DNA of 64,000 nucleotides from Escherichia coli (GTDB lineage: Bacteria > Pseudomonadota > Gammaproteobacteria > Enterobacterales > Enterobacteriaceae). The notes beneath the pieces are model-generated. The model was given only the letters and a program-made list of their open reading frames with translations. It ran no database searches and was not told where the DNA came from. This document shows, in pieces, positions 3,563 through 61,136 of the stretch (position 1 is the first letter of the stretch; the number at the start of each line of letters is the position of its first letter). The DNA lies in assembly GCF_024700885.2 (NCBI RefSeq), contig NZ_CP117014.1; one strand, 5' to 3'. Both the position numbers and the translations under genes were made by a program.

Positions 3563-4303
3563 TTACAAACCGCGTTTTTTGCGAATGCGCATTGATTTTT
3601 TGCGGTTGATATTCGCTACGGATGTATGTGCTTTGCGGCGTGCTTTTTTCAGCGCCTGTTTTTGCAATGACGTCATGCGGCGAGGACGCGGGCGTTTACG
3701 GATGATGGTTACCTTGCCATCACGAACCACTTTTTTACGTACCGCTTCCAGCATTGCGCTATCACCACCAGCAACGGTGTAAATGGCAATAGCTGTTTCC
3801 ATCATGTCGGTGTCGCTTTCGGAAAGAGCGTCATAAACACGTTCGGCAGCTGAGTCATCTTCATCGTCGATCATTTCGGTTACATCATCCTGATCAGCGC
3901 CAAGCGCAACAGCTGCATCAGCAAGAGCTGCGAGTGCATCGTTATAAGCATCGATTTGCTCATCGGTGAAATCGGTGTCTTCATCGATATCAGCCAGGCC
4001 AGCCATAGTGATTGCTAATGCATCAAATGAGTCAGCCTCCGGATCACCATCTTCAACCCAACCAGCAAGCATGGAAGCTGCCAGGCTGCGCATATCACCT
4101 TGTGCACGGGATTCAACCGCTTCCATCATCGCGGTTTCAATGTCGTCTTTGGGCTTTGGTTGAGTGTCCTTTCCTTTCTGTCCTGCGCTTTCCAGCATGG
4201 CGTTATCATTATTGTCCTGCGTGGATTTATCACCGCTTTCAAAGCAGCCAGAACCGAAAATCGCACGCATAAAAGGATCAGCAGTATAATTTTTCATATT
4301 CAA
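3563..4303 (-). CDS. Acidic virion protein with strongly basic C-terminal tail (246 aa)
   Basis: D/E-rich central region followed by K/R-rich C-terminus (KRPRPRR...RKKRGL); composition typical of internal or DNA-associated virion proteins. Confidence 0.35.
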   Translation of the reverse strand: MNMKNYTADPFMRAIFGSGCFESGDKSTQDNNDNAMLESAGQKGKDTQPKPKDDIETAMMEAVESRAQGDMRSLAASMLAGWVEDGDPEADSFDALAITMAGLADIDEDTDFTDEQIDAYNDALAALADAAVALGADQDDVTEMIDDEDDSAAERVYDALSESDTDMMETAIAIYTVAGGDSAMLEAVRKKVVRDGKVTIIRKRPRPRRMTSLQKQALKKARRKAHTSVANINRKKSMRIRKKRGL

Positions 4304-8190: not shown

Positions 8191-8348
8191 GGTTAAGCCC
8201 TAAATTCGGGCGCGGCGTGAAGGTTCTTTTGACGGGATAACAATACCTACTTTGTGATTTAGTCAATAGGTTTAGTAAAATAAAATCTATTAACACTCAT
8301 GTTGTTATGTGATTTAATTTTAGTTTTCTAACACAAATCATTAGAGTT

Positions 8349-18807: not shown

Positions 18808-18841
18808 TGTGTTAGAAAATACGCGTTAATTATCTAACACA
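18808..18841. promoter_or_regulatory. Palindromic operator-like site TGTGTTAGAAAA-N-TTATCTAACACA in the rdgC promoter region
   Basis: GTTAGA-N16-TCTAAC read directly; same architecture at 32812-32829 and 35654-35681. Confidence 0.45.
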
Positions 18842-31842: not shown

Positions 31843-32173
31843 TTTGACACCCCCGACGCGAGTAAAGAATGCAGATTATCGCGTGAGTGGTGGACGACGA
31901 GTGATGGGAAAAGACTGTAGTTGTTCATAGTGTAGTGACTCCTTGCTTTCGGAGCCGCCATCGACTGTTCCACGGTCTGGTGGCGGCGCAATAAAGGCTG
32001 GAACACCGTGAGTCAACGGGGGCTTTTCAGCCACCTATATTGCACCGCCATAGGTATGACGGCGGCAATAATACGAAAAACTAAACAGTTTGTCTCAAAA
32101 AGTTGACCGGTGTGCCAATCGGTAGTGAATGTACATCGGAGAAATTTACAATTCAACTTAAAATGTTAGAAAA

Positions 32174-32811: not shown

Positions 32812-32829
32812 CAAAATTGATTTTCTAAC
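32812..32829. promoter_or_regulatory. Palindromic operator-like site GTTAGA-N16-TCTAAC upstream of the Ref-like gene
   Basis: GGTTAGATATTCAAAATTGATTTTCTAACACA read directly. Confidence 0.45.
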
Positions 32830-32869
32830 ACAAAACATTAATATCATCACTGATAAATGTTTGGAGGAC

Positions 32870-35653: not shown

Positions 35654-35681
35654 GTTAGAACATTGATTTTAGTTTTCTAAC
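35654..35681. promoter_or_regulatory. Palindromic operator-like site GTTAGA-N16-TCTAAC
   Basis: CGTTAGAACATTGATTTTAGTTTTCTAACATA read directly, ~45 bp upstream of gene at 35725. Confidence 0.45.
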
Positions 35682-35724
35682 ATATTATTTTACCGATCGG
35701 AACAAAACAGAGTCGGTATGCATT

Positions 35725-48927: not shown

Positions 48928-49000
48928 AGCACCCTCCTAAATAGGCGAGGGTACTTTACAGCAAAGGCGTTAATCTAAAAAGATGTGTTAGAAATTTAAT

Positions 49001-50214: not shown

Positions 50215-50395
50215 AAAATGCCGATTTTTTTTAATCCATCATAGATTGATGATGACCAGTAACACGTTGCCTTCATGGTCTTTAATTTGCGAAGTGTGGT
50301 TTCTACGGTTGGTTTTCTAAAATTGATGACAAAAAATCACAGTTCGATCCTTTACTCACTCTGTTATTCGACATAAATTTGTCATAGTAATTTTA

Positions 50396-50411
50396 TGTTA
50401 GAAAACTAAAT
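50396..50411 (+). promoter_or_regulatory. Dispersed motif copy TGTTAGAAAACTAAAT in promoter of gene at 50424
   Basis: Read directly, ~13 bp upstream of ATG. Confidence 0.45.
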
Positions 50412-54750: not shown

Positions 54751-54858
54751 TAATCCCCCGGGCAGGAAATGACCGAGGGGATGATAATGAGAATGTTAAA
54801 ACTGTATAGACTGGTAAAAAGATGAATGTATTAGAAAATTAATACTAAATATCTAATG

Positions 54859-55826: not shown

Positions 55827-56278
55827 AACGTTTCCTTTTTTACACGCGCGACTATCCCCCGGAAGTACCGGTAGTGATGTCGTAACTTCGTATTAATTAA
55901 GGGGTACAGCCTGAGCGGCTATATGATGAATTGAAAGGAGTTGTGGCGGTGGTGCCTCCACCTGCCAGGTTAGCCACTCCTGGCGACGTCACTTATCAGA
56001 ACGTAGTGAATGAAAATGGCTTCGTCACGAGCGCATAGCCGCAATTACCACAACGGAAACGGCGCTCACGCTAATTAAACGCCTTTTCCTGTTGTGCGCC
56101 GTGCTCTTCCGGCTGTCACACCGAATCGCCAGGATGGTGAATCCGCAGTCCGACGCTATGAACGGGGCTTGCACATTCCGGCTACCTGGTGTGCCCATGC
56201 AGTGTTAGTAAAAGGTACCTAACAGCTACACCAGACCGCTAACGACGCATGTGCCATACGCCGTGTTACAACCAAATG

Positions 56279-56354
56279 TGGTGGCCCCTACCGGACTTGA
56301 ACCGGTGACCGTGCGATTATGAGTCGCCCGCTCTAACCACTGAGCTAAAGGGCC
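56279..56354 (-). tRNA. tRNA with CAU anticodon (Ile2/Met-type)
   Basis: Reverse complement gives 76-nt cloverleaf ending CCA, anticodon loop CTCATAA; very similar to E. coli ileX from memory. Confidence 0.8.
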
Positions 56355-56783
56355 AGATTACTGTTAATTACGCTTACGCTTTTTGCCAGAACCGCGTAAG
56401 GCTTTTGCCGCTTGCTCTACCCCGTATGCAACCACCAGCAGAAACAATAATGTCCACTCCGGGTTTTTATCGGCAAACGCCCAAAAATCCATCACTTGCA
56501 GCCACCTTTTAAGACAAAACGCCATTGCTGTTAGGTTGCGGTGCCGGGCGCCTCCCGGTGACGTTAACCAGTTAACAATTAACGCCGGATCACTTATGGA
56601 TTCTCGTTACGCCAGTAAAAAGACCACCTTTACTGTTTTAACTGTTCCGCGTGCGCTTAGCCGCATTCACCGCAATGGTAAGAGCATTTGGCTGACTGGG
56701 CGGCGATGACGCCTGTACGCATTTGGTGATCCGGTTCTGCTTCCGGCATTCGCTTAATTAGCCAAATACCCTTAATGTTGCAC

Positions 56784-56870
56784 TGGCGGAGAGTAATGGA
56801 ATCGAACCATCATCGCTTGCGCAATGGGACGGTTTTCAAGACCGCTTGAGCACCATGCTCCCTACTCTCC
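56784..56870 (-). tRNA. tRNA-Ser (UGA), type II with long variable arm
   Basis: 87 nt, acceptor GGAGAGT/ACTCTCC, anticodon stem GCGGT/ACCGT, loop CTTGAAA, T-loop TTCGATT, 3' GCCA. Confidence 0.7.
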
Positions 56871-57324
56871 CGTTATTGTGGCGACCGGTGCTGATCTCCG
56901 GCTTGCGGTTATTTCAGACTCTCACGGGCGTTTAATTGCCCCGCCGAACAGCTCTTTTCCGCAATAGCTGCAATGTCTTTCGCGCATCAGCCTGCGCATT
57001 CACCACAATGTTGAGAACACTGGTTGTCACGCTGCAACGCAACATTTATTCGTAGATTGGGATATGACCCCGTTACGCCAGTGTTCTCAACGTTGTAGTG
57101 CCGGTTACGGTTCCGGCCAGACCTCTTCCTCAACGGGGTGTTCTCCATACGGACTACCGTTTATTGGTCGTTCCTGCGGTTTATGTTGTGAAGCCAGATG
57201 CTTATCTTCTGGTTGCTTCAAAGAGCTGCACTTCATCACAACGGTAAGAGCATTTATGGCTCGCATCGCGGGAAAAAGCCCACGGTAGAGAGTCGAACTC
57301 TACAAATGCTCTTACCTGTTGTGT

Positions 57325-57400
57325 TGGTGCCGGTTAACGGGATCGAACCGCTGACCATTCGCTTACAAAGCGACTGCTCTACCAACTGAGCTAAACCGGC
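57325..57400 (-). tRNA. tRNA-Thr (UGU)
   Basis: 76 nt, acceptor GCCGGTT/AACCGGC, D-arm GCTCAGTTGGTAGAGC, loop TTTGTAA, T-loop TTCGATC, CCA. Confidence 0.8.
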
Positions 57401-57404
57401 AATT

Positions 57405-57491
57405 TGGTGGGGAGTGATGGAGTCGAACCACCCGAGTCGCAATGACAGTAGATTTACAGTCTACCCCGCTACCCCTACGGACTAACTCCCC
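57405..57491 (-). tRNA. tRNA-Tyr (GUA), type II
   Basis: 87 nt, acceptor GGGGAGT/ACTCCCC, anticodon stem GTAGA/TCTAC, loop CTGTAAA, CCA. Confidence 0.75.
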
Positions 57492-57496
57492 TAAAT

Positions 57497-57573
57497 TGGC
57501 GATGGTGGGTGGATTCGAACCACCTACCGAAAGCTTAGAAGGCTGCTGTTCTATCCTACTGAGCTACACCATC
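57497..57573 (-). tRNA. tRNA-Arg (UCU)-like
   Basis: 77 nt, acceptor GATGGTG/CACCATC, loop CTTCTAA as in E. coli argU, T-arm GGTGG-TTCGAAT-CCACC, CCA; one mismatch in anticodon stem. Confidence 0.6.
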
Positions 57574-58808
57574 ACTTGCCGGGTACGTCTCCGGCGAGGG
57601 CTTCCACCTCCGTATGCTTTTCGGCGCACCGCGCCCTGGCTGCAATTCGGTAACAGGGGATGCACAACCCTGGCTTCCAGCGTGATTAGCGCCTTCAGCA
57701 TGACGGGATATACCCGTTACAAGAAGTTCTCCCAGGATGCCATTAAGCAATGGCTGTTACGCGGGAAGGACGCAACAGGTAAGGGCGCTGACCAGAAAGA
57801 CCTGACCCTTCTCATTCATCTGGTTAATCACACCAGCGCCCTTGCCTGTTATGCCTCCCCGTTCCCTAATACACAGACGGGGACACTCTGCGGTCGATTT
57901 TTTTGACGGGGGACGACTCATACCCCGTGGCGTCTGGCTTCTTAGGCCGCTACCATCATCAGATCATCGTTTGCATTTACTTTAATGGTCAGTTTCTAAA
58001 CCGCCGCAAAGTCGCTAACCATGACGAAAACCCTAAAAAAGCCCACCCGAAGATGGGCAAATACGCTACATCTCACACAAGAAAGAAGCCGACTGCCTGA
58101 GCTGGATTCACTTTCAAATGCCCGCTGAAAGGGATCACAAGTCGGCTTCTTTCTTGATGCGGCACTCTCTCCGCCCGTCACCGCTCTGTCTCGGTTGTCG
58201 CGTTTGCCACGCCAGCCGTAACGAGGTTTAAAGTCTTTACACGTTTCCATCACTCGACTGCCGTCTGTGGCTGTTCGTTGCAGCGGGGGTGCCTCCCCCT
58301 GGGGATATCCCCGGCCTTACCCCATTCTTTCAAGACACAATGCAAGGCCACATCCGCATAGGTGCATTACCGCAACATTAAGGAGACTCAGGGCAAAAGG
58401 TAACCGCCACAAAAATCCCTATGCCTCCTTAATGTTGAAGATGTGCATTGATGATTAGATGCAGCATGTACCGTTACTCTCTGCCGGACCATCATCAATG
58501 AACACCTTAAAAAGACCTTCCGTGGCTCAACATGTATTGTCGTTTACTCCGCAAAGTGCTCTCTCTGAAACCACTTTCCGCACTAAACCTGCTGAACTTT
58601 GGCCTGCACGGTGCCAAAGCGTGCTCTTGCATTACTATACATTTCTAACACTTTAATTTGTTAAATGCTGGTGGGCGAACAATAACCAATAAGTGACTAT
58701 CAAGCCCAGCAAGCGAAACGTGGGTACCGCCCACCAGCAAGGAAAATTCTATGTTAAGTTATCTTCACAATCAATACATTCGAATTGTGATTTTAGATTT
58801 CTAACACA

Positions 58809-60017
58809 TTATTTCCCATAAAGATCTTCTACACCCCCATTCTTCTTATCCCATTCGTTCGCCCATACCCGGCAAGCGTCAATGATTTCCTGACGACGAT
58901 CTCCTTGCATGAACGGGATGCTTTCATGGAAACAGCTTGGAATGCAGGCCACACTGAATACAGTATCAAACTCCGTCTGCTTGATTGCCTCCAGCGTCTC
59001 CGGACGCATTTTTAATTCATCGATTGGCGCATCCTTAGAGTCCATAATCCGGCGATATAAGCGCGGAAAATCCGTCTCCAGATACGCCATAATTTTATCT
59101 GCGAGACATTCGTCTATGTCGGTATTCCAGTCCTTTTCGAAGCCCGGCAGGCGATAGTAAAGCGGCGTTCCCCATACCGATGGGATCACATCCATCGTTA
59201 ACAGGCGATTGGTTCTGATTTGTTGATGGTAATTAGCCGTCAGCAGTGCTTCGCCACGCTGCCCAGTTTCCGCAACCAGGCCGTGCGGATACTCATGGAT
59301 GTAGGCAATGGCATCCCTTCCATCATACATAAGTGGAAATGTCTCTGGTCTTTGTCCCATGCCACAAGCACGGTTCAGATCGTGACCAAGCTGTGAGCAC
59401 TCTCGCTTTAATGTTTCGATAATGCTCTGCGCTGTAGCCAACTTTTTACGCAGTGTGACGCCTTCGCCTTGATAATCAATGCATTGCTGATTGAGCTTGG
59501 TTAAACGCTCTTTTAGTTCCCGGCGCTCTCTTTTCAGCGTGCGGTTATCCTTCTCCGCAACATCCAGCCGCTTTGTCAGGCTTGGCGGATAGTCTTTTTT
59601 GTAACGGTTCAAATCGGCTTCGGCAGATTTACGCAGTGTATTTGCCTGTTCAAGACGCGCTTCCAGATTGCCGATCTCATTACGCATATTCGCGGCAAAT
59701 TGATTAACTGCATCACCCAGGCTTTCAACTGTCGCTGATACGCCTGTGACTTGTGAAAAACGGATCAAGCCATCATTAACTGCTTGTTGGTATTCCTCAA
59801 ACTGATCCACCAGCTTATTGTAATCAACTGCCCCATCATCAAGCAGCTTGTTGATTTCCGCCACCAGGTTATCTGTAGTGGCAATGACACTCTCGTGCAG
59901 TCGCTTTGACAGGTCATCACCCGGATTCCGTTTCTGTATAAGAGCGATTTGTGTGCGCAGCGTTTCAATTGCTGTCGAGATAATTTCCAGATTAGAAGTA
60001 TCAGTGTGTTGACTCAT
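58809..60017 (-). CDS. Hypothetical protein with N-terminal coiled coil (402 aa)
   Basis: Motif copies flank both ends (58786-58807 and 60038-60056). Confidence 0.45.
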   Translation of the reverse strand: MSQHTDTSNLEIISTAIETLRTQIALIQKRNPGDDLSKRLHESVIATTDNLVAEINKLLDDGAVDYNKLVDQFEEYQQAVNDGLIRFSQVTGVSATVESLGDAVNQFAANMRNEIGNLEARLEQANTLRKSAEADLNRYKKDYPPSLTKRLDVAEKDNRTLKRERRELKERLTKLNQQCIDYQGEGVTLRKKLATAQSIIETLKRECSQLGHDLNRACGMGQRPETFPLMYDGRDAIAYIHEYPHGLVAETGQRGEALLTANYHQQIRTNRLLTMDVIPSVWGTPLYYRLPGFEKDWNTDIDECLADKIMAYLETDFPRLYRRIMDSKDAPIDELKMRPETLEAIKQTEFDTVFSVACIPSCFHESIPFMQGDRRQEIIDACRVWANEWDKKNGGVEDLYGK

Positions 60018-60130
60018 TGCTATTCCCGTTACTTTGTTAAATTATTTTTCTAACATATTTTATTAGTTTGATGACAGTATCGAAAGATGCAATAAACAAA
60101 AAACCCGCTAATTGGCGGGTTTTTATGCAA

Positions 60131-60445
60131 TTACTGTGTTGCAGCCTGATAAATAAGATACGCGATAAATACAGGTACGATGGCCCATTGCAGCAATGAA
60201 AGTAGCCTCATTACTGTTATTGGGGTAACTCCATCCACGTATTGTTTCTCTGACATTTTCCCGAACCAACTAACCGACAACAGTGCCGAGTTTTCCCCCA
60301 ATTCCAGCTCTCTGAGAGCTTCACGGATTAACGGCGCTGTCACAGCCTTAACCGGTGTGCTCAACGTGATACTCCGCGTCCTCCCCGCATCGTCAGCGAA
60401 CGCCAGACTCACATAATATTTTTTGCTCAATGTACAAACTCCCAA
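60131..60445 (-). CDS. Small protein with C-terminal transmembrane helix (104 aa)
   Basis: C-terminal LLSLLQWAIVPVFIAYLIY hydrophobic segment. Confidence 0.35.
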   Translation of the reverse strand: MGVCTLSKKYYVSLAFADDAGRTRSITLSTPVKAVTAPLIREALRELELGENSALLSVSWFGKMSEKQYVDGVTPITVMRLLSLLQWAIVPVFIAYLIYQAATQ

Positions 60446-60641: not shown

Positions 60642-61136
60642 TTAATCAAGACAAACATACTCCGTGATAGCTTTTATGGCTTCAGCGGCACTGCGCGCCT
60701 CAAAGCAGTAGTAACCGGCTTCTGTGAGGCGAGTCATCCAGACGAGTTGTTCGGGAGTCAGGCGATTTCTCCCATGTTTCATCTCAATGCGCATTCCGTG
60801 GTATCCCCCACAAGCAAGGTCTATAGAAAGATCGGGATATCCCTTCTTTTGGCCCTCTGCCACCATTTTTATTGCCGTCCTTATGCCTCGCAGGCCACCG
60901 TTTGGAGTGGCGTGAGTATGCTCATACACATAACGCATATTGCGATACATCCAGTCCAGGACGCGAACCTGCTCGTAATGCTCATGGTTCCTTTTGATTA
61001 GATCTGGGTTTTTCTCCAGTTCTCTAAGAGCTGCGGCATGTGGGGATGTTTCAGAATATTCACTGCGACGCCTTCTCTTTCGCGCTATTTTTCTAACACA
61101 CCCATTGATAGTAAATATGCGAAATAATAACAACAA
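60642..61136 (-). CDS. VRR-NUC domain nuclease (start uncertain)
   Basis: ...PNGG...KGYPDL...GGYHG.RIEMK.G.N.LTPEQ..W...L...GY pattern; motif copy at 61083-61100 lies inside the 5' end of the track ORF. Confidence 0.55.
   Translation of the reverse strand: MLLLFRIFTINGCVRKIARKRRRRSEYSETSPHAAALRELEKNPDLIKRNHEHYEQVRVLDWMYRNMRYVYEHTHATPNGGLRGIRTAIKMVAEGQKKGYPDLSIDLACGGYHGMRIEMKHGRNRLTPEQLVWMTRLTEAGYYCFEARSAAEAIKAITEYVCLD

What the first reader, a model, noticed from the sequence alone, without database searches (positions are those of the whole stretch)
57574..58808. 1.2-kb region without a convincing ORF upstream of the tRNA cluster, rich in long-range inverted repeats
No credible coding frame (only short antisense or overlapping track ORFs). 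It contains AGAAAGAAGCCGACT...AGTCGGCTTCTTTCT (58078-58160), CAACATTAAGGAG...CTCCTTAATGTTG (58374-58438), CTGGTGGGCG...CGCCCACCAG (58669-58738) and two motif copies. It may hold the tRNA operon promoter plus regulatory RNAs.
Basis: seen in the sequence. Interest (0 to 1): 0.4.

Follow-up and report, generated by a model that had tools for sequence, protein, structure and literature searches.

The report
Phage tmRNA-like RNA without tRNA domain
The gene-free 1.2 kb upstream of this P1/D6-type phage-plasmid's tRNA genes is a repressor-controlled non-coding leader whose best-conserved part is a pseudoknotted RNA that carries a tmRNA-style 10-codon degradation-tag frame but no tRNA-like domain, and this RNA is shared by hundreds of unrelated enterobacterial phages and appears to be undescribed.

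Summary
There is no conserved ORF, the three inverted repeats are real and far beyond chance, and both motif copies are present. The tRNAs lie on the minus strand, so the region is their upstream leader. The window is a D6-like member of the P1 family.

Reading 5'->3' on the minus strand, the region contains:
- two copies of a D6-type homologue of the P1 C1 operator, flanking the only sigma-70-like promoter;
- a ~700-nt D6-lineage leader with three hairpins kept by compensatory changes;
- a terminator-like hairpin;
- a ~460-nt block almost invariant between D6 and P1.

The core of that block (57837-58043) recurs in about 230 phage records from unrelated phage families, in about 620 plasmids and in 12% of complete E. 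coli genomes. It holds a frame that starts with GCA and is always 10 codons plus a stop (ANDDLMMVAA here; E. coli tmRNA encodes ANDENYALAA). The stop sits in a hairpin loop, and two H-type pseudoknots with heavy covariation follow.

Rfam gives only sub-threshold tmRNA hits. ARAGORN, Rfam and inspection find no tRNA-like domain. I read it as a tmRNA-derived RNA that acts on ribosome rescue; that mechanism is inferred, not shown.

The parts
58790..58810 (-). Operator-like motif O1 (AATGTGTTAGAAATCTAAAAT), about 20 nt upstream of the -35 hexamer and directly after the stop codon of the pmgS homologue.
   Evidence: The window consensus AATGTGTTAGAAAACTAAAAT occurs about 13 times. Its reverse complement matches the P1 C1 operator ATTGCTCTAATAAATTT at 12 of 17 positions (my alignment). 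It is conserved in all D6-like relatives, including L005.
58746..58774 (-). Sigma-70-like promoter, TTGATT-17-TAGAAT. The predicted start is near 58739.
   Evidence: this is the only hit in 4.2 kb. The -35 hexamer is identical and the -10 is TAAAAT in the divergent L005, while the spacer differs. That it functions as a promoter is inferred.
58666..58739 (-).
   Evidence: repeat I5.: -33 kcal/mol, z -4.4; 12/12 pairs kept in L003 through GGGCG/CGCCC changing to GGGGA/TCCCC.
58634..58654 (-). Operator-like motif O2 (AAAGTGTTAGAAATGTATAGT). It overlaps a possible second promoter, TTAACA-19-TATAGT.
   Evidence: The motif is conserved in all D6-like relatives. The second promoter is my reading only; its 19-nt spacer is outside the range the scan accepts.
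58373..58437 (-). Hairpin I1, which sequesters a perfect Shine-Dalgarno-like UAAGGAGG. No conserved ORF follows it.
   Evidence: -30.6 kcal/mol, z -5.9; 15/15 pairs in all six relatives, with an A-U to G-C compensatory change in L003 and L004.
58278..58376 (-). Block that is nearly invariant in all D6-like relatives, with a G+C-rich hairpin (GGGGAUAUCCCC / GGGGGAGGCACCCCC). Function unknown.
   Evidence: the block is almost 100% identical even in L005, whose flanks are about 73% identical.
58166..58275 (-). Mosaic block shared at 83% identity with an unrelated Pantoea plasmid and missing from the Shigella dysenteriae relative.
   Evidence: The frame of the 85-aa ORF is broken by stops and an indel in Pantoea, and by a TGA in L004.
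58078..58156 (-). Hairpin I3, with a 17-bp perfect stem.
   Evidence: z -4.5; two compensatory pairs in L003 and L004 (16/17 paired).
58035..58058 (-). Intrinsic-terminator-like hairpin GCCCAUC-UUCG-GGUGGGC followed by U6, immediately 5' of the tmRNA-like core.
   Evidence: z -3.8; 7/7 pairs in all relatives including P1, with U-G changed to C-G plus C changed to U in L003. Most other lineages also have a terminator-like hairpin just upstream of the core.
57837..58043 (-). Core of the conserved RNA family: a 5' box (GUUUUCGUC...GCGACUUUGCGG...UUUAGAAACUGACCA), the tag frame, the helix-5-like hairpin, and pseudoknots PK2 and PK3.
   Evidence: Covariance model R1 built here gives one hit in the window (149 bits, E 5e-46). 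The core matches about 230 non-P1 phage records, at least 120 IMG/VR contigs and 669 of 5426 E. coli genomes. Rfam gives only sub-threshold tmRNA hits.
57942..57974 (-). tmRNA-type tag frame GCA AAC GAU GAU CUG AUG AUG GUA GCG GCC UAA = ANDDLMMVAA*, preceded by AUAAAU (U at -5 and A at -4, as U85/A86 in E. coli).
   Evidence: All 128 elements have exactly 10 codons plus a stop, in 28 distinct ORFs. Codon 10 is always Ala, with all four Ala codons used. The other two frames vary in length. The role of E. coli UAGUC/A86 is taken from PMC2481249.
57893..57927 (-). H-type pseudoknot PK2 (S1 CGGGG/CCCCG, S2 GUCG/CGAC).
   Evidence: 84 of 87 unique sequences are fully paired, with 5 or more S1 variants and 4 S2 variants; helices 2 and 3 are 99-100% paired, and 5 of their 9 pairs change on both sides.
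57856..57892 (-). H-type pseudoknot PK3 (S1 CGCAGA/UCUGUG, S2 UCCCCG/CGGGGA).
   Evidence: S1 is 6/6 paired in 87 of 87 unique sequences, with 9 variant combinations. S2 is always complementary, though 3-8 bp long. One search covers helices 4 and 5.
57773..57852 (-). Long hairpin 'module' (AUAACAGGCAAGGGCGCUG...CAGCGCCCUUACCUGUUG). It is the local version of arms (CACAACAGGUAAGAGCAUU ... AGUGCUCUUUCCGUUGUG) that flank tRNA or tRNA-like inserts in many phages.
   Evidence: repeat I4; z -6.8.. A second copy lies at 57237-57323.
57574..57772 (-). 3' domain specific to the P1 lineage. It has a variable patch (57720-57790) with hairpin swaps, a segment at 57673-57699 predicted to pair with the 5' box (a closing helix like tmRNA helix 2), and a terminal hairpin at 57578-57595. 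It ends 3 nt before tRNA-Arg.
   Evidence: The long-range helix rests on RNAalifold over 25 P1-like sequences and on one G-U/G-C swap. It is not general in other lineages.
57497..57573 (-). tRNA-Arg(UCU), the first of the downstream tRNAs. RNase P cleavage at its 5' end would define the 3' end of the upstream RNA (inferred).

Best explanation
SHOWN:
- The region is the non-coding 5' part of a minus-strand operon in a D6-like P1-family phage-plasmid. It corresponds to the stretch between Pban/Op72 and the tRNAs of the P1 ban operon.
- It begins with a sigma-70-like promoter flanked by two operator-like motifs homologous to the P1 C1 operator.
- It continues with a lineage-specific leader of about 700 nt containing three covarying hairpins and a terminator-like hairpin.
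- It then encodes a structured RNA conserved with P1, whose ~200-nt core is shared by many unrelated enterobacterial phages.
- That core has the anatomy of the mRNA-like half of tmRNA: a GCA-started frame of 10 codons whose product resembles the ssrA degron, U and A at -5/-4, the stop codon in a hairpin loop, and two downstream H-type pseudoknots.
- It has no recognisable tRNA-like domain.

INFERRED:
- The RNA is made early, when the C1-type repressor is absent, together with the phage tRNAs.
- It is released by RNase P cutting at the downstream tRNA.
- It acts on the host ribosome-rescue (trans-translation) system.

Two modes are possible, and I weight them about equally:
(a) It serves as a tag template, which would need a tRNA-like partner supplied in trans. 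The partner could be host tmRNA-SmpB or a phage tRNA-like module.
(b) It acts as a decoy that titrates factors which bind this part of tmRNA (S1, SmpB, RNase R).
For: Homology and context:
- The window is 100% identical to E. coli plasmids, 99.1% to phage D6 and 92% to P1 over 57574-58061.
- The P1 annotation places Pban/Op72 just upstream and the tRNAs just downstream.

Promoter and operators. P1 pmgR/pmgS are C1-controlled, and the motif sits next to their homologues here.

The core as a family:
- BLAST finds it in Ackermannviridae, Schitoviridae, Drexlerviridae and other phages, always on the strand of the neighbouring genes and often upstream of tRNAs.
- The covariance model finds one copy per locus.

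Tag frame: constant length, [AV]-A C-terminus, AN[DE][DEN] N-terminus, and synonymous variation at codon 10.

Structure:
- 97.2% of cells are paired, against 31-47% in the slid controls.
- 11 of 23 pairs change on both sides.
- No shuffle of 500 reaches the observed covariation.
- Window-type variants add further compensations.

Link to tmRNA:
- Every lineage gives sub-threshold hits only to tmRNA families. These hits align UAAAUGCAAACGAUGA...GCCUAA and the next hairpin.
- The tag region itself is unstructured (z +1.4), as expected for a template.
Against: - No tRNA-like domain is found. ARAGORN finds no tmRNA in the window, in P1 or in 57 family representatives.
- The Rfam alignments delete the tRNA-like-domain part of the models, and no hit reaches a gathering score.
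- I found no G3:U70 acceptor stem, no adjacent T-arm and no consistent CCA end. A canonical trans-translation role is therefore impossible for this RNA alone.
- There is no expression, binding or tagging evidence of any kind.
- The IMG/VR set was retrieved with an exact pattern, so the 5' box, U-5/A-4 and codons 1-3 could not vary in it.
- The terminator-like hairpin may stop most transcripts before they reach the core.
- A P1-like mcr-1 plasmid carries the element cut by a TnpB insertion, so it is dispensable for plasmid maintenance.
Confidence: 0.6

Rival explanations
1. The conserved block is a cis-acting platform for processing, stability or antitermination of the tRNA operon. It could offer entry sites for RNase E, RNase III or RNase P, or protect the 5' end. 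Its likeness to tmRNA would then be an inherited relic without a role in ribosome rescue.
For: - It sits directly 5' of tRNAs here and in P1 (3-nt spacer), and 320-500 nt upstream of tRNAs in many other phages.
- Leader/trailer hairpin 'modules' flank tRNA-like inserts all over these regions.
- A terminator-like hairpin precedes the core in most lineages.
Against: - Many loci that carry the core have no tRNA within several kb.
- A processing platform does not explain a frame held at exactly 10 codons with an Ala C-terminus across 28 distinct ORFs.
- It also does not explain the stop codon being kept in a hairpin loop.
Confidence: 0.17
2. The core is a decaying pseudogene of a once complete phage tmRNA and has no present function.
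For: - The tRNA-like domain is missing.
- tRNA-like remnants abound nearby.
- One plasmid tolerates an insertion in the element.
Against: - Compensatory changes maintain four helices across lineages that are only 70-75% identical.
- The core is far more conserved than its flanks between D6, P1 and L005.
- The frame is never broken in 128 copies.
Confidence: 0.06
3. The region acts at the DNA level, as a recombination or cassette-exchange site for tRNA genes, an origin, or a protein-binding array. The repeats would then be DNA cruciforms or binding sites.
For: - The tRNA next to the conserved block differs between relatives (Arg/Tyr here, Asn in D6 and P1).
- The upstream leader is a mosaic of blocks shared with different plasmids.
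Against: - G-U pairs are tolerated on the minus strand only (for example G68-U92 and U72-G88 in all 64 sequences).
- Pseudoknot topology and a strand-specific reading frame point to RNA.
- Orientation relative to neighbouring genes is constant.
Confidence: 0.05
4. A protein-coding gene is hidden here by frameshifts or annotation gaps.
For: - Some records annotate 'hypothetical protein' under the match.
- An Arg-rich stretch WRG(K/T)RDNRDRAVT is shared with the Pantoea plasmid.
Against: - No Pfam family matches.
- The ORFs are broken by stops and by indels that are not multiples of three in close relatives.
- The 154-aa ORF overlaps two tRNAs on the opposite strand.
- Near-invariance of the P1-shared block, without third-position drift, is not a coding pattern.
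Confidence: 0.02

Closest known systems
tmRNA (SsrA), in particular the coding piece of two-piece (permuted) tmRNAs; Rfam RF00023, RF01849, RF01850, RF04321
   Same: - The tag frame starts with GCA and has 10 codons. Tags such as ANDDLMMVAA, ANDEQFLAVA and ANEEMYLAVA compare with E. coli ANDENYALAA.
- U and A lie at -5 and -4 before the resume codon.
- The stop codon sits in a hairpin loop.
- Consecutive H-type pseudoknots follow.
- A 5' 'UUUCGUC' box resembles the UUCGAC box that follows the acceptor strand.
- Sub-threshold covariance-model hits go only to these families.
   Different: - There is no tRNA-like domain: no G3:U70 acceptor stem, no T-arm, no CCA.
- There are two pseudoknots after the tag rather than three, and no clear PK1.
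- Scores are 15-33 bits against gathering scores of 47-84.
- It is encoded by phages of hosts that already have a standard tmRNA.
- It is embedded in tRNA-region transcripts.
Phage tmRNA genes and fragments listed in the tmRNA databases (mycobacteriophage Bxz1 group, Bacillus phage G; mycobacteriophage DS6A 'TLD only')
   Same: - These are phage-borne relatives of tmRNA.
- DS6A shows that a partial tmRNA can be kept by a phage. According to PMC4131195 and PMC11915505, such a tRNA-like-domain-only molecule inhibits host tmRNA when expressed in E. coli.
   Different: - Those entries all contain the tRNA-like domain. The element here is the converse: tag template and pseudoknots without that domain.
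- Neither paper mentions P1, D6 or enterobacterial phages.
- Their pipelines start from ARAGORN or BLAST hits that require the tRNA-like domain.
Leader of the phage P1 ban operon (Pban, operator Op72, 'dicF-like region', tRNA1 and tRNA2)
   Same: - Same position and same strand logic.
- 92% identity over the 488 nt next to the tRNAs.
- Repressor-controlled promoter upstream.
   Different: - The P1 operator consensus itself is absent (0 matches at 3 mismatches or fewer). A diverged motif replaces it.
- The ~105-nt P1 'dicF-like' segment is missing from the window, although it is present in L003-L005.
- About 700 nt of unrelated leader is inserted.
- Rfam's DicF model matches neither P1 nor the window.
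GOLLD and ROOL: large structured RNAs of unknown function that are often phage-borne and lie next to tRNA genes
   Same: A large, highly structured non-coding RNA carried by phages and adjacent to tRNA genes.
   Different: - No Rfam match to either family.
- Different hosts (Enterobacterales).
- This element contains a conserved reading frame.

Membership tests
tmRNA (standard or permuted) | A tag reading frame that resumes at an Ala codon (GCA), has about 10 codons and ends in hydrophobic-Ala-Ala (or a similar sequence) plus a stop. | tested here: met
   128 of 128 elements have 10 codons plus a stop. Tags follow AN[DE][DEN]xx[LMK][AMV][AV]A. Codon 10 is Ala with all four Ala codons. Window coordinates are 57942-57974.
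tmRNA (standard or permuted) | A conserved U and A four to five nucleotides upstream of the resume codon (E. coli U85/A86). | tested here: inconclusive
   AUAAAU|GCA has U at -5 and A at -4 in every copy. However, these bases were fixed by the retrieval pattern. Only the five BLAST-derived phages are independent. The role in E. coli is taken from PMC2481249.
tmRNA (standard or permuted) | The stop codon lies in the helix-5 hairpin. | tested here: met
   The outer stem CUGG/CCAG, CUGA/UCAG or UGG/CCA encloses the last codons and the stop. In one search helix 1 is 100% paired, with 31 double changes at one pair.
tmRNA (standard or permuted) | Pseudoknots downstream of the tag. | tested here: met
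   Two H-type pseudoknots are present. tabulate the variants. One search gives 97.2% of cells paired, 11 of 23 pairs with double changes, and 0 of 500 shuffles reaching the observed covariation.
tmRNA (standard or permuted) | Pseudoknot PK1 shortly upstream of the tag. | tested here: inconclusive
   A helix CUUUG.CGG / CC.CAAAG can be drawn in most lineages. It has almost no covariation and fails in the Bp4 group (my reading).
tmRNA (standard or permuted) | A tRNA-like domain: 7-bp acceptor stem with G3:U70, a T-arm and a 3' (N)CCA. | tested here: not met
   - ARAGORN finds none in the window, P1, D6 or 57 representatives.
- The Rfam alignments skip the tRNA-like-domain positions of the models.
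- T-loop-like GTTCGA occurs upstream in only 8 of 57 representatives and downstream in 17 of 57.
- The 3' CACCACA is followed by varied sequences.
tmRNA (standard or permuted) | The Rfam gathering score is reached. | tested here: not met
   The best scores are 33.5 bits (RF04321, gathering score 47), 24.7 bits (RF01849, 50), 23.1 bits (RF01850, 84) and 15.5 bits (RF00023, 47).
tmRNA (standard or permuted) | Alanylation, SmpB/EF-Tu binding and tagging of stalled-ribosome products. | not testable with these tools
   These need biochemistry or proteomics.
P1-type C1 repressor operator at an early promoter (such as Op72 at Pban) | An asymmetric 17-bp site matching ATTGCTCTAATAAATTT, in many copies per genome, at early promoters. 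| tested here: inconclusive
   - The P1 consensus itself is absent.
- A diverged motif matches it at 12 of 17 positions and occurs about 13 times in the window, including inverted pairs.
- It lies next to homologues of the P1 C1-controlled genes pmgR/pmgS and pmgM.
- Binding by the D6 repressor is not testable here.
DicF sRNA | A match to the DicF covariance model, or homology to the P1 'dicF-like region'. | tested here: not met
   There is no DicF hit at E-values up to 10 in the window or in P1. The P1 segment annotated as dicF-like is deleted in the window apart from the terminal hairpin.
Rho-independent terminator | A G+C-rich hairpin followed by a U tract. | tested here: met
   58058..58035 is a 7-bp stem with a UUCG loop and U6. 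Its z-score is -3.8, and the pairs are kept in all relatives. Termination efficiency is not testable here.

The most novel reading that the evidence does not exclude
The phage RNA is a free-standing tag template that hijacks the host's own tmRNA-SmpB entry step, or a phage tRNA-like module. Together they would form a chimeric two-piece tmRNA, so that proteins from stalled ribosomes receive a phage-specified degron (…LMAA, …MVAA, …AVA) instead of the host's. This would be the first trans-translation template lacking a tRNA-like domain. It would also be a widespread phage strategy to reprogram ribosome rescue, carried even by phage P1.
Probability: 0.2. Interest if true: 0.95.

Novelty: new variant of a known kind. 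Interest (0 to 1): 0.78.

Why it matters
tmRNA is defined by the union of a tRNA-like domain and an mRNA-like domain. Partial forms known so far keep the tRNA-like half: DS6A, some plastids and mitochondria.

Here there is a widespread family under purifying selection that keeps only the tag template and pseudoknots. It occurs in phages of at least four families, in P1-type phage-plasmids (many of which carry resistance genes) and in 12% of complete E. coli genomes.

If it is functional, either trans-translation can use a template supplied in trans, or phages deploy mimics of the mRNA-like domain against ribosome rescue. Either outcome would be new biology.

Both can be tested directly in P1, a classical genetic system.

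The finding also explains a long-unannotated, ultra-conserved stretch of the P1 ban operon. It gives annotators a covariance model for a region that is now left blank or called 'hypothetical protein'.

Tried and rejected
1. Rfam at permissive thresholds on the window, P1 and 14 other loci gave no family at gathering score inside the region. DicF, GOLLD, ROOL, 6S and riboswitch families were absent. The miRNA and Ysr49-type hits merely reflect hairpins and the terminator.

2. Hidden protein gene: rejected.

3. Search for a tRNA-like domain. I tried ARAGORN, T-loop motif counts, the 3' 'UGUGGUG...GCCGGAG-loop-CCGGC-CACCACA' tRNA-shaped module, the 5' hairpin read as a permuted acceptor stem, and the 'tRNA-Ala(cgc)' upstream of the core in phage Bp4. 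None has G3:U70, a canonical T-arm next to an acceptor strand, or a consistent CCA.

4. A general long-range closing helix between the 5' box and a downstream segment is predicted for P1-like sequences. Duplex energies in other lineages are not better than shuffles, so I do not claim it for the family.

5. The helix GUUAG/CUGAC and a PK1-like helix upstream of the tag show too little covariation (reading).

6. My first automatic pseudoknot parsers for PK3 picked wrong registers. Anchoring on the conserved loop solved this.

7. The covariance-model alignment A2 kept P1-like rows one or two columns out of register. The formal count was therefore done on 64 non-P1 sequences (A3).

8. The single genome-contig scan was wasted. 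My pattern had 15 instead of 16 N between codon 4 and codon 10, and returned only three chance matches. The distribution among bacterial species representatives therefore remains unknown.

9. Literature searches found no description of this element. The P1 genome paper and the D6 paper are not held in the library.
Full report
**Identity and orientation**

The window region 57574-58808 is 100% identical to two E. coli plasmids and 99.1% identical to phage D6. Its first 488 nt (57574-58061) are about 92% identical to phage P1, P7, SJ46 and several hundred P1-like plasmids. ARAGORN and Rfam place all five tRNAs of the window on the minus strand: Arg 57497-57573, Tyr, Thr, Ser and Met. The finding is therefore the sequence upstream of the tRNAs when read on the minus strand.

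In P1 the homologous stretch lies between the C1-controlled promoter Pban (operator Op72) and tRNA-Asn/tRNA-Thr of the ban operon. The only annotation there is a 'dicF-like region'. D6 annotates nothing.

**Check of the observation**

- Perfect arms of 17, 13 and 12 nt compare with a maximum of 11 nt in 200 shuffles.
- As minus-strand RNA the hairpins fold with z-scores from -4.4 to -6.8.
- The two motif copies are confirmed.
- No ORF is credible. There are no Pfam matches. The longest minus-strand ORF has an in-frame stop in one relative and is deleted or interrupted in others. The 154-aa plus-strand ORF runs antisense through two tRNAs.

**Promoter and operators**

The only sigma-70-like promoter in 56000-60200 is on the minus strand at 58774..58746. 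Its hexamers survive in the Shigella dysenteriae relative L005, although the spacer is rewritten.

It occurs about 13 times in the window, some copies as inverted pairs. Its reverse complement matches the asymmetric 17-bp P1 C1 operator at 12 of 17 positions (my alignment). The P1 consensus itself is absent.

Copies lie next to the homologues of pmgS and pmgM. In P1, pmgR/pmgS and the pmgL-pmgN region carry C1 operators Op86a,b, Op82 and Op83. I therefore read the motif as the D6-type repressor operator. One copy (58790-58810) lies about 20 nt upstream of the -35 hexamer, and one (58634-58654) lies about 95 nt downstream of the predicted start. Binding is inferred, not shown.

**The D6-lineage leader (58061-58740)**

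Alignment of the window with D6, three further E. coli / E. marmotae plasmids, the S. dysenteriae plasmid and P1 shows a mosaic:

- a 5' stem-loop at 58666-58739;
- hairpin I1 at 58373-58437, which buries a perfect UAAGGAGG;
- a block that is nearly invariant in all D6-like relatives at 58278-58376;
- a block at 58166-58275 shared at 83% with a Pantoea plasmid and missing from L005;
- hairpin I3 at 58078-58156.

All three hairpins keep their pairing through compensatory changes. The P1 'dicF-like' segment is present in L003-L005 but absent from the window. Rfam's DicF model matches neither P1 nor the window. What this leader does is unknown. It ends in a conserved terminator-like hairpin with a U6 tract (58058..58035).

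**The conserved block and its core**

From 58040 to 57574 the window, D6, L003-L007, L005 and P1 are almost identical. This is far more conserved than the flanking genes. The exception is a patch at 57720-57790 where different hairpins replace each other.

A sensitive BLAST of this block gave the unexpected result. Positions 57838-58032 match about 230 further phage records at 70-88% identity. The matching phages include:

- Ackermannviridae (phiEa2809, phiMAM1, Magnus, Menlow);
- Schitoviridae (Bp4, ECBP1, PD38);
- Drexlerviridae (Cronobacter phage CS01);
- phages of Salmonella, Klebsiella, Serratia, Aeromonas and others.

In four annotated examples the neighbouring genes and tRNAs are on the same strand as in the window, and nothing is annotated under the match. 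About 620 plasmids and 669 of 5426 complete E. coli genomes also carry it. Host ssrA is not among the matches.

**The tag frame**

On the minus strand the window reads AUAAAU GCA AAC GAU GAU CUG AUG AUG GUA GCG GCC UAA, which encodes ANDDLMMVAA* (57974-57942). The tmRNA tag of E. coli is ANDENYALAA. Its resume codon GCA is preceded by UAGUC, with U85 and the essential A86 at -5 and -4 (PMC2481249).

A pattern search of IMG/VR returned at least 120 loci. Together with the earlier loci this gives 128 elements. In every one the GCA frame has exactly 10 codons and a stop. There are 28 distinct ORFs, encoding tags such as ANDDVVLMAA, ANDEQFLAVA, ANEEMYLAVA, ANDNTFLAVA and ANDNEFKVAA.

- Codon 10 is always Ala and uses all four Ala codons.
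- Codon 9 is Ala or Val.
- Codons 3 and 4 are Asp, Glu or Asn.
- The other two frames have variable lengths.

Caveat: the retrieval pattern fixed the 5' box, the AUAAAU and codons 1-3, so only codons 4-10 and everything downstream are free observations in that set.

**Structure**

The last codons and the stop lie in a hairpin, as in tmRNA helix 5. Two H-type pseudoknots follow.

- PK2: stem 1 occurs as CAAGG/CCUUG, UGAGG/CCUCA, CGGGG/CCCCG, UCAGG/CCUGA or CUGGG/CCCAG. Stem 2 occurs as CCGA/UCGG, GUCG/CGAC, CCAA/UUGG or CCAG/CUGG. Both stems are fully paired in 84 of 87 unique sequences.
- PK3: the 6-bp stem 1 is fully paired in 87 of 87 sequences in nine combinations, with CGCAGA/UCUGUG in the window. 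Stem 2 varies from 3 to 8 bp but is always complementary.

The formal count was made on 64 non-P1 sequences:

- 97.2% of cells are paired, against 31-47% when partners are slid.
- 11 of 23 pairs change on both sides.
- The covariation score is 0.253, against 0.114 in shuffles (0 of 500 reach it).

A covariance model built here (R1) finds exactly one copy per locus. In the window the copy is at 57837-58043, with 149 bits.

**Relation to tmRNA**

Rfam gives hits only to tmRNA families over this core, and it does so in every lineage tested:

| Family | Best score (bits) | Gathering score |
|---|---|---|
| tmRNA_permuted (RF04321) | 33.5 | 47 |
| alpha_tmRNA (RF01849) | 24.7 | 50 |
| beta_tmRNA (RF01850) | 23.1 | 84 |
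| tmRNA (RF00023) | 15.5 | 47 |

The alignments cover UAAAUGCAAACGAUGA...GCCUAA and the next hairpin, and they delete the tRNA-like-domain positions of the models.

- ARAGORN calls no tmRNA in the window, P1, D6 or any of 57 representatives.
- I found no G3:U70 acceptor stem, no T-arm adjoining an acceptor strand and no consistent CCA.
- The 5' box (acceptor-strand-like segment, 6-10 nt, then UUUUCGUC) resembles the 5' end of real tmRNAs. In most lineages, however, it is simply paired to an upstream arm of a long hairpin.

The element therefore fails membership of tmRNA on a defining feature, while sharing the anatomy of the mRNA-like half.

The tmRNA database papers list phage tmRNAs (mycobacteriophages, Bacillus phage G) and a tRNA-like-domain-only form in phage DS6A. 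They do not list anything like this, and their pipelines depend on detecting the tRNA-like domain (PMC4131195, PMC11915505). Further literature searches found no description.

**Rest of the P1-type block**

Downstream of PK3 lies a long hairpin at 57773-57852. It is the local form of conserved arms that, in many phages, flank tRNA genes or tRNA-like remnants. A second copy lies at 57237-57323, after tRNA-Thr.

RNAalifold on 25 P1-like sequences pairs the 5' box with 57673-57699. This closes the tag/pseudoknot ring as helix 2 does in tmRNA. The support is weak, and the helix is not general in other lineages. The block ends 3 nt before tRNA-Arg.

**How it probably works**

Shown:
- a repressor-type operator/promoter arrangement;
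- conserved RNA structure;
- a constrained tag frame;
- linkage to phage tRNAs.

Inferred:
- The RNA is transcribed when the repressor is lifted.
- Transcription passes through the terminator-like hairpin. P1 ban transcripts must also pass it, because Op72 controls ban 2.6 kb downstream.
- RNase P trims the RNA at the following tRNA.
- The RNA engages the ribosome-rescue system.

The amino-acid-level pattern of the tag (ssrA-like N-terminal AND/ANE, a hydrophobic residue at position 6-7, a C-terminal [AV]A) argues that it is decoded. Decoding would require a tRNA-like partner in trans. The absence of any such domain argues instead for a decoy of factors that bind this part of tmRNA. S1 crosslinks to U85, PK2 and PK3 according to PMC2481249. 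I cannot decide between the two modes, and no expression data were available.

**Verdict**

The substantive result is a widespread tmRNA-like RNA family without a tRNA-like domain, apparently undescribed, carried by P1 and D6 and by many virulent and temperate enterobacterial phages.

Noticed in passing
window 56537-56674 (-); also L001 3149-3268 (-) and L014 1030-1244 (-): There is a match to the prophage sRNA family STnc100 (RF02076) between tRNA-Met and tRNA-Ser. It scores 39.1 bits here (gathering score 47), 33.4 bits in P1, and 53.2 bits (above threshold) in a Menlow-like Klebsiella phage contig. STnc100 is reported to be related to the PasD sRNAs (bioRxiv 10.64898/2026.05.13.724894).
   Followed up: partly
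window 57237-57323 (-), 57773-57852 (-); many loci, e.g. L023, L037, L074, L077: Recurrent hairpin 'cassette arms' (CACAACAGGUAAGAGCAUU ... AGUGCUCUUUCCGUUGUG) enclose variable inserts. Some inserts are tRNA-like remnants with a GGUUCGAnUCC T-arm that ARAGORN does not call. The arms look like conserved leader/trailer pairs of phage tRNA cassettes.
   Followed up: partly
window 57405-57573 versus L002 (D6) 3847-4000 and L001 (P1) 3847-4000: The tRNAs next to the conserved block differ between close relatives. The window has tRNA-Arg(UCU) and tRNA-Tyr where D6 and P1 have tRNA-Asn. In addition, the D6 GenBank record places its tRNAs on the plus strand, while ARAGORN finds them on the complement.
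   Followed up: partly
window 8325-8334, 18809-18840, 32163-32172, 32822-32831, 35674-35683, 48985-48994, 50395-50404, 54828-54837, 60047-60056, 61090-61099: These are further copies of the operator-like motif (A/G)TGTTAGAAA-NN-TAAWWT, including an inverted pair at 18809-18840. They probably mark the repressor-controlled promoters of this D6-like element.
   Followed up: partly
L133 (pHYEC7-mcr1, NZ_KX518745.1) 1413-1576: In this IncY P1-like mcr-1 plasmid the tmRNA-like core is truncated (model positions 46-195 only) by an insertion carrying a TnpB-family gene. This is a natural knock-out, and it shows the element is not needed for plasmid maintenance.
   Followed up: partly
L009 (phage Bp4) 1782-1853 (-): ARAGORN calls a 'tRNA-Ala(cgc)' about 95 nt upstream of the tmRNA-like core in the Bp4/G7C-type phages. 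It scores poorly with Rfam (26 bits, as tRNA-Sec) and has U3-A70 rather than G3:U70.
   Followed up: partly
window 58373-58437 (-): Hairpin I1 sequesters a perfect Shine-Dalgarno sequence (UAAGGAGG) against CUCCUUA. No conserved start codon or ORF follows it. The purpose is unknown.
   Followed up: no
L006 (Pantoea sp. plasmid NZ_CP034366.1) 3001-3113: A 110-nt block of the D6 leader (window 58166-58275) recurs at 83% identity in an intergenic region of an otherwise unrelated Pantoea plasmid. This suggests a small mobile or exchangeable non-coding module.
   Followed up: partly
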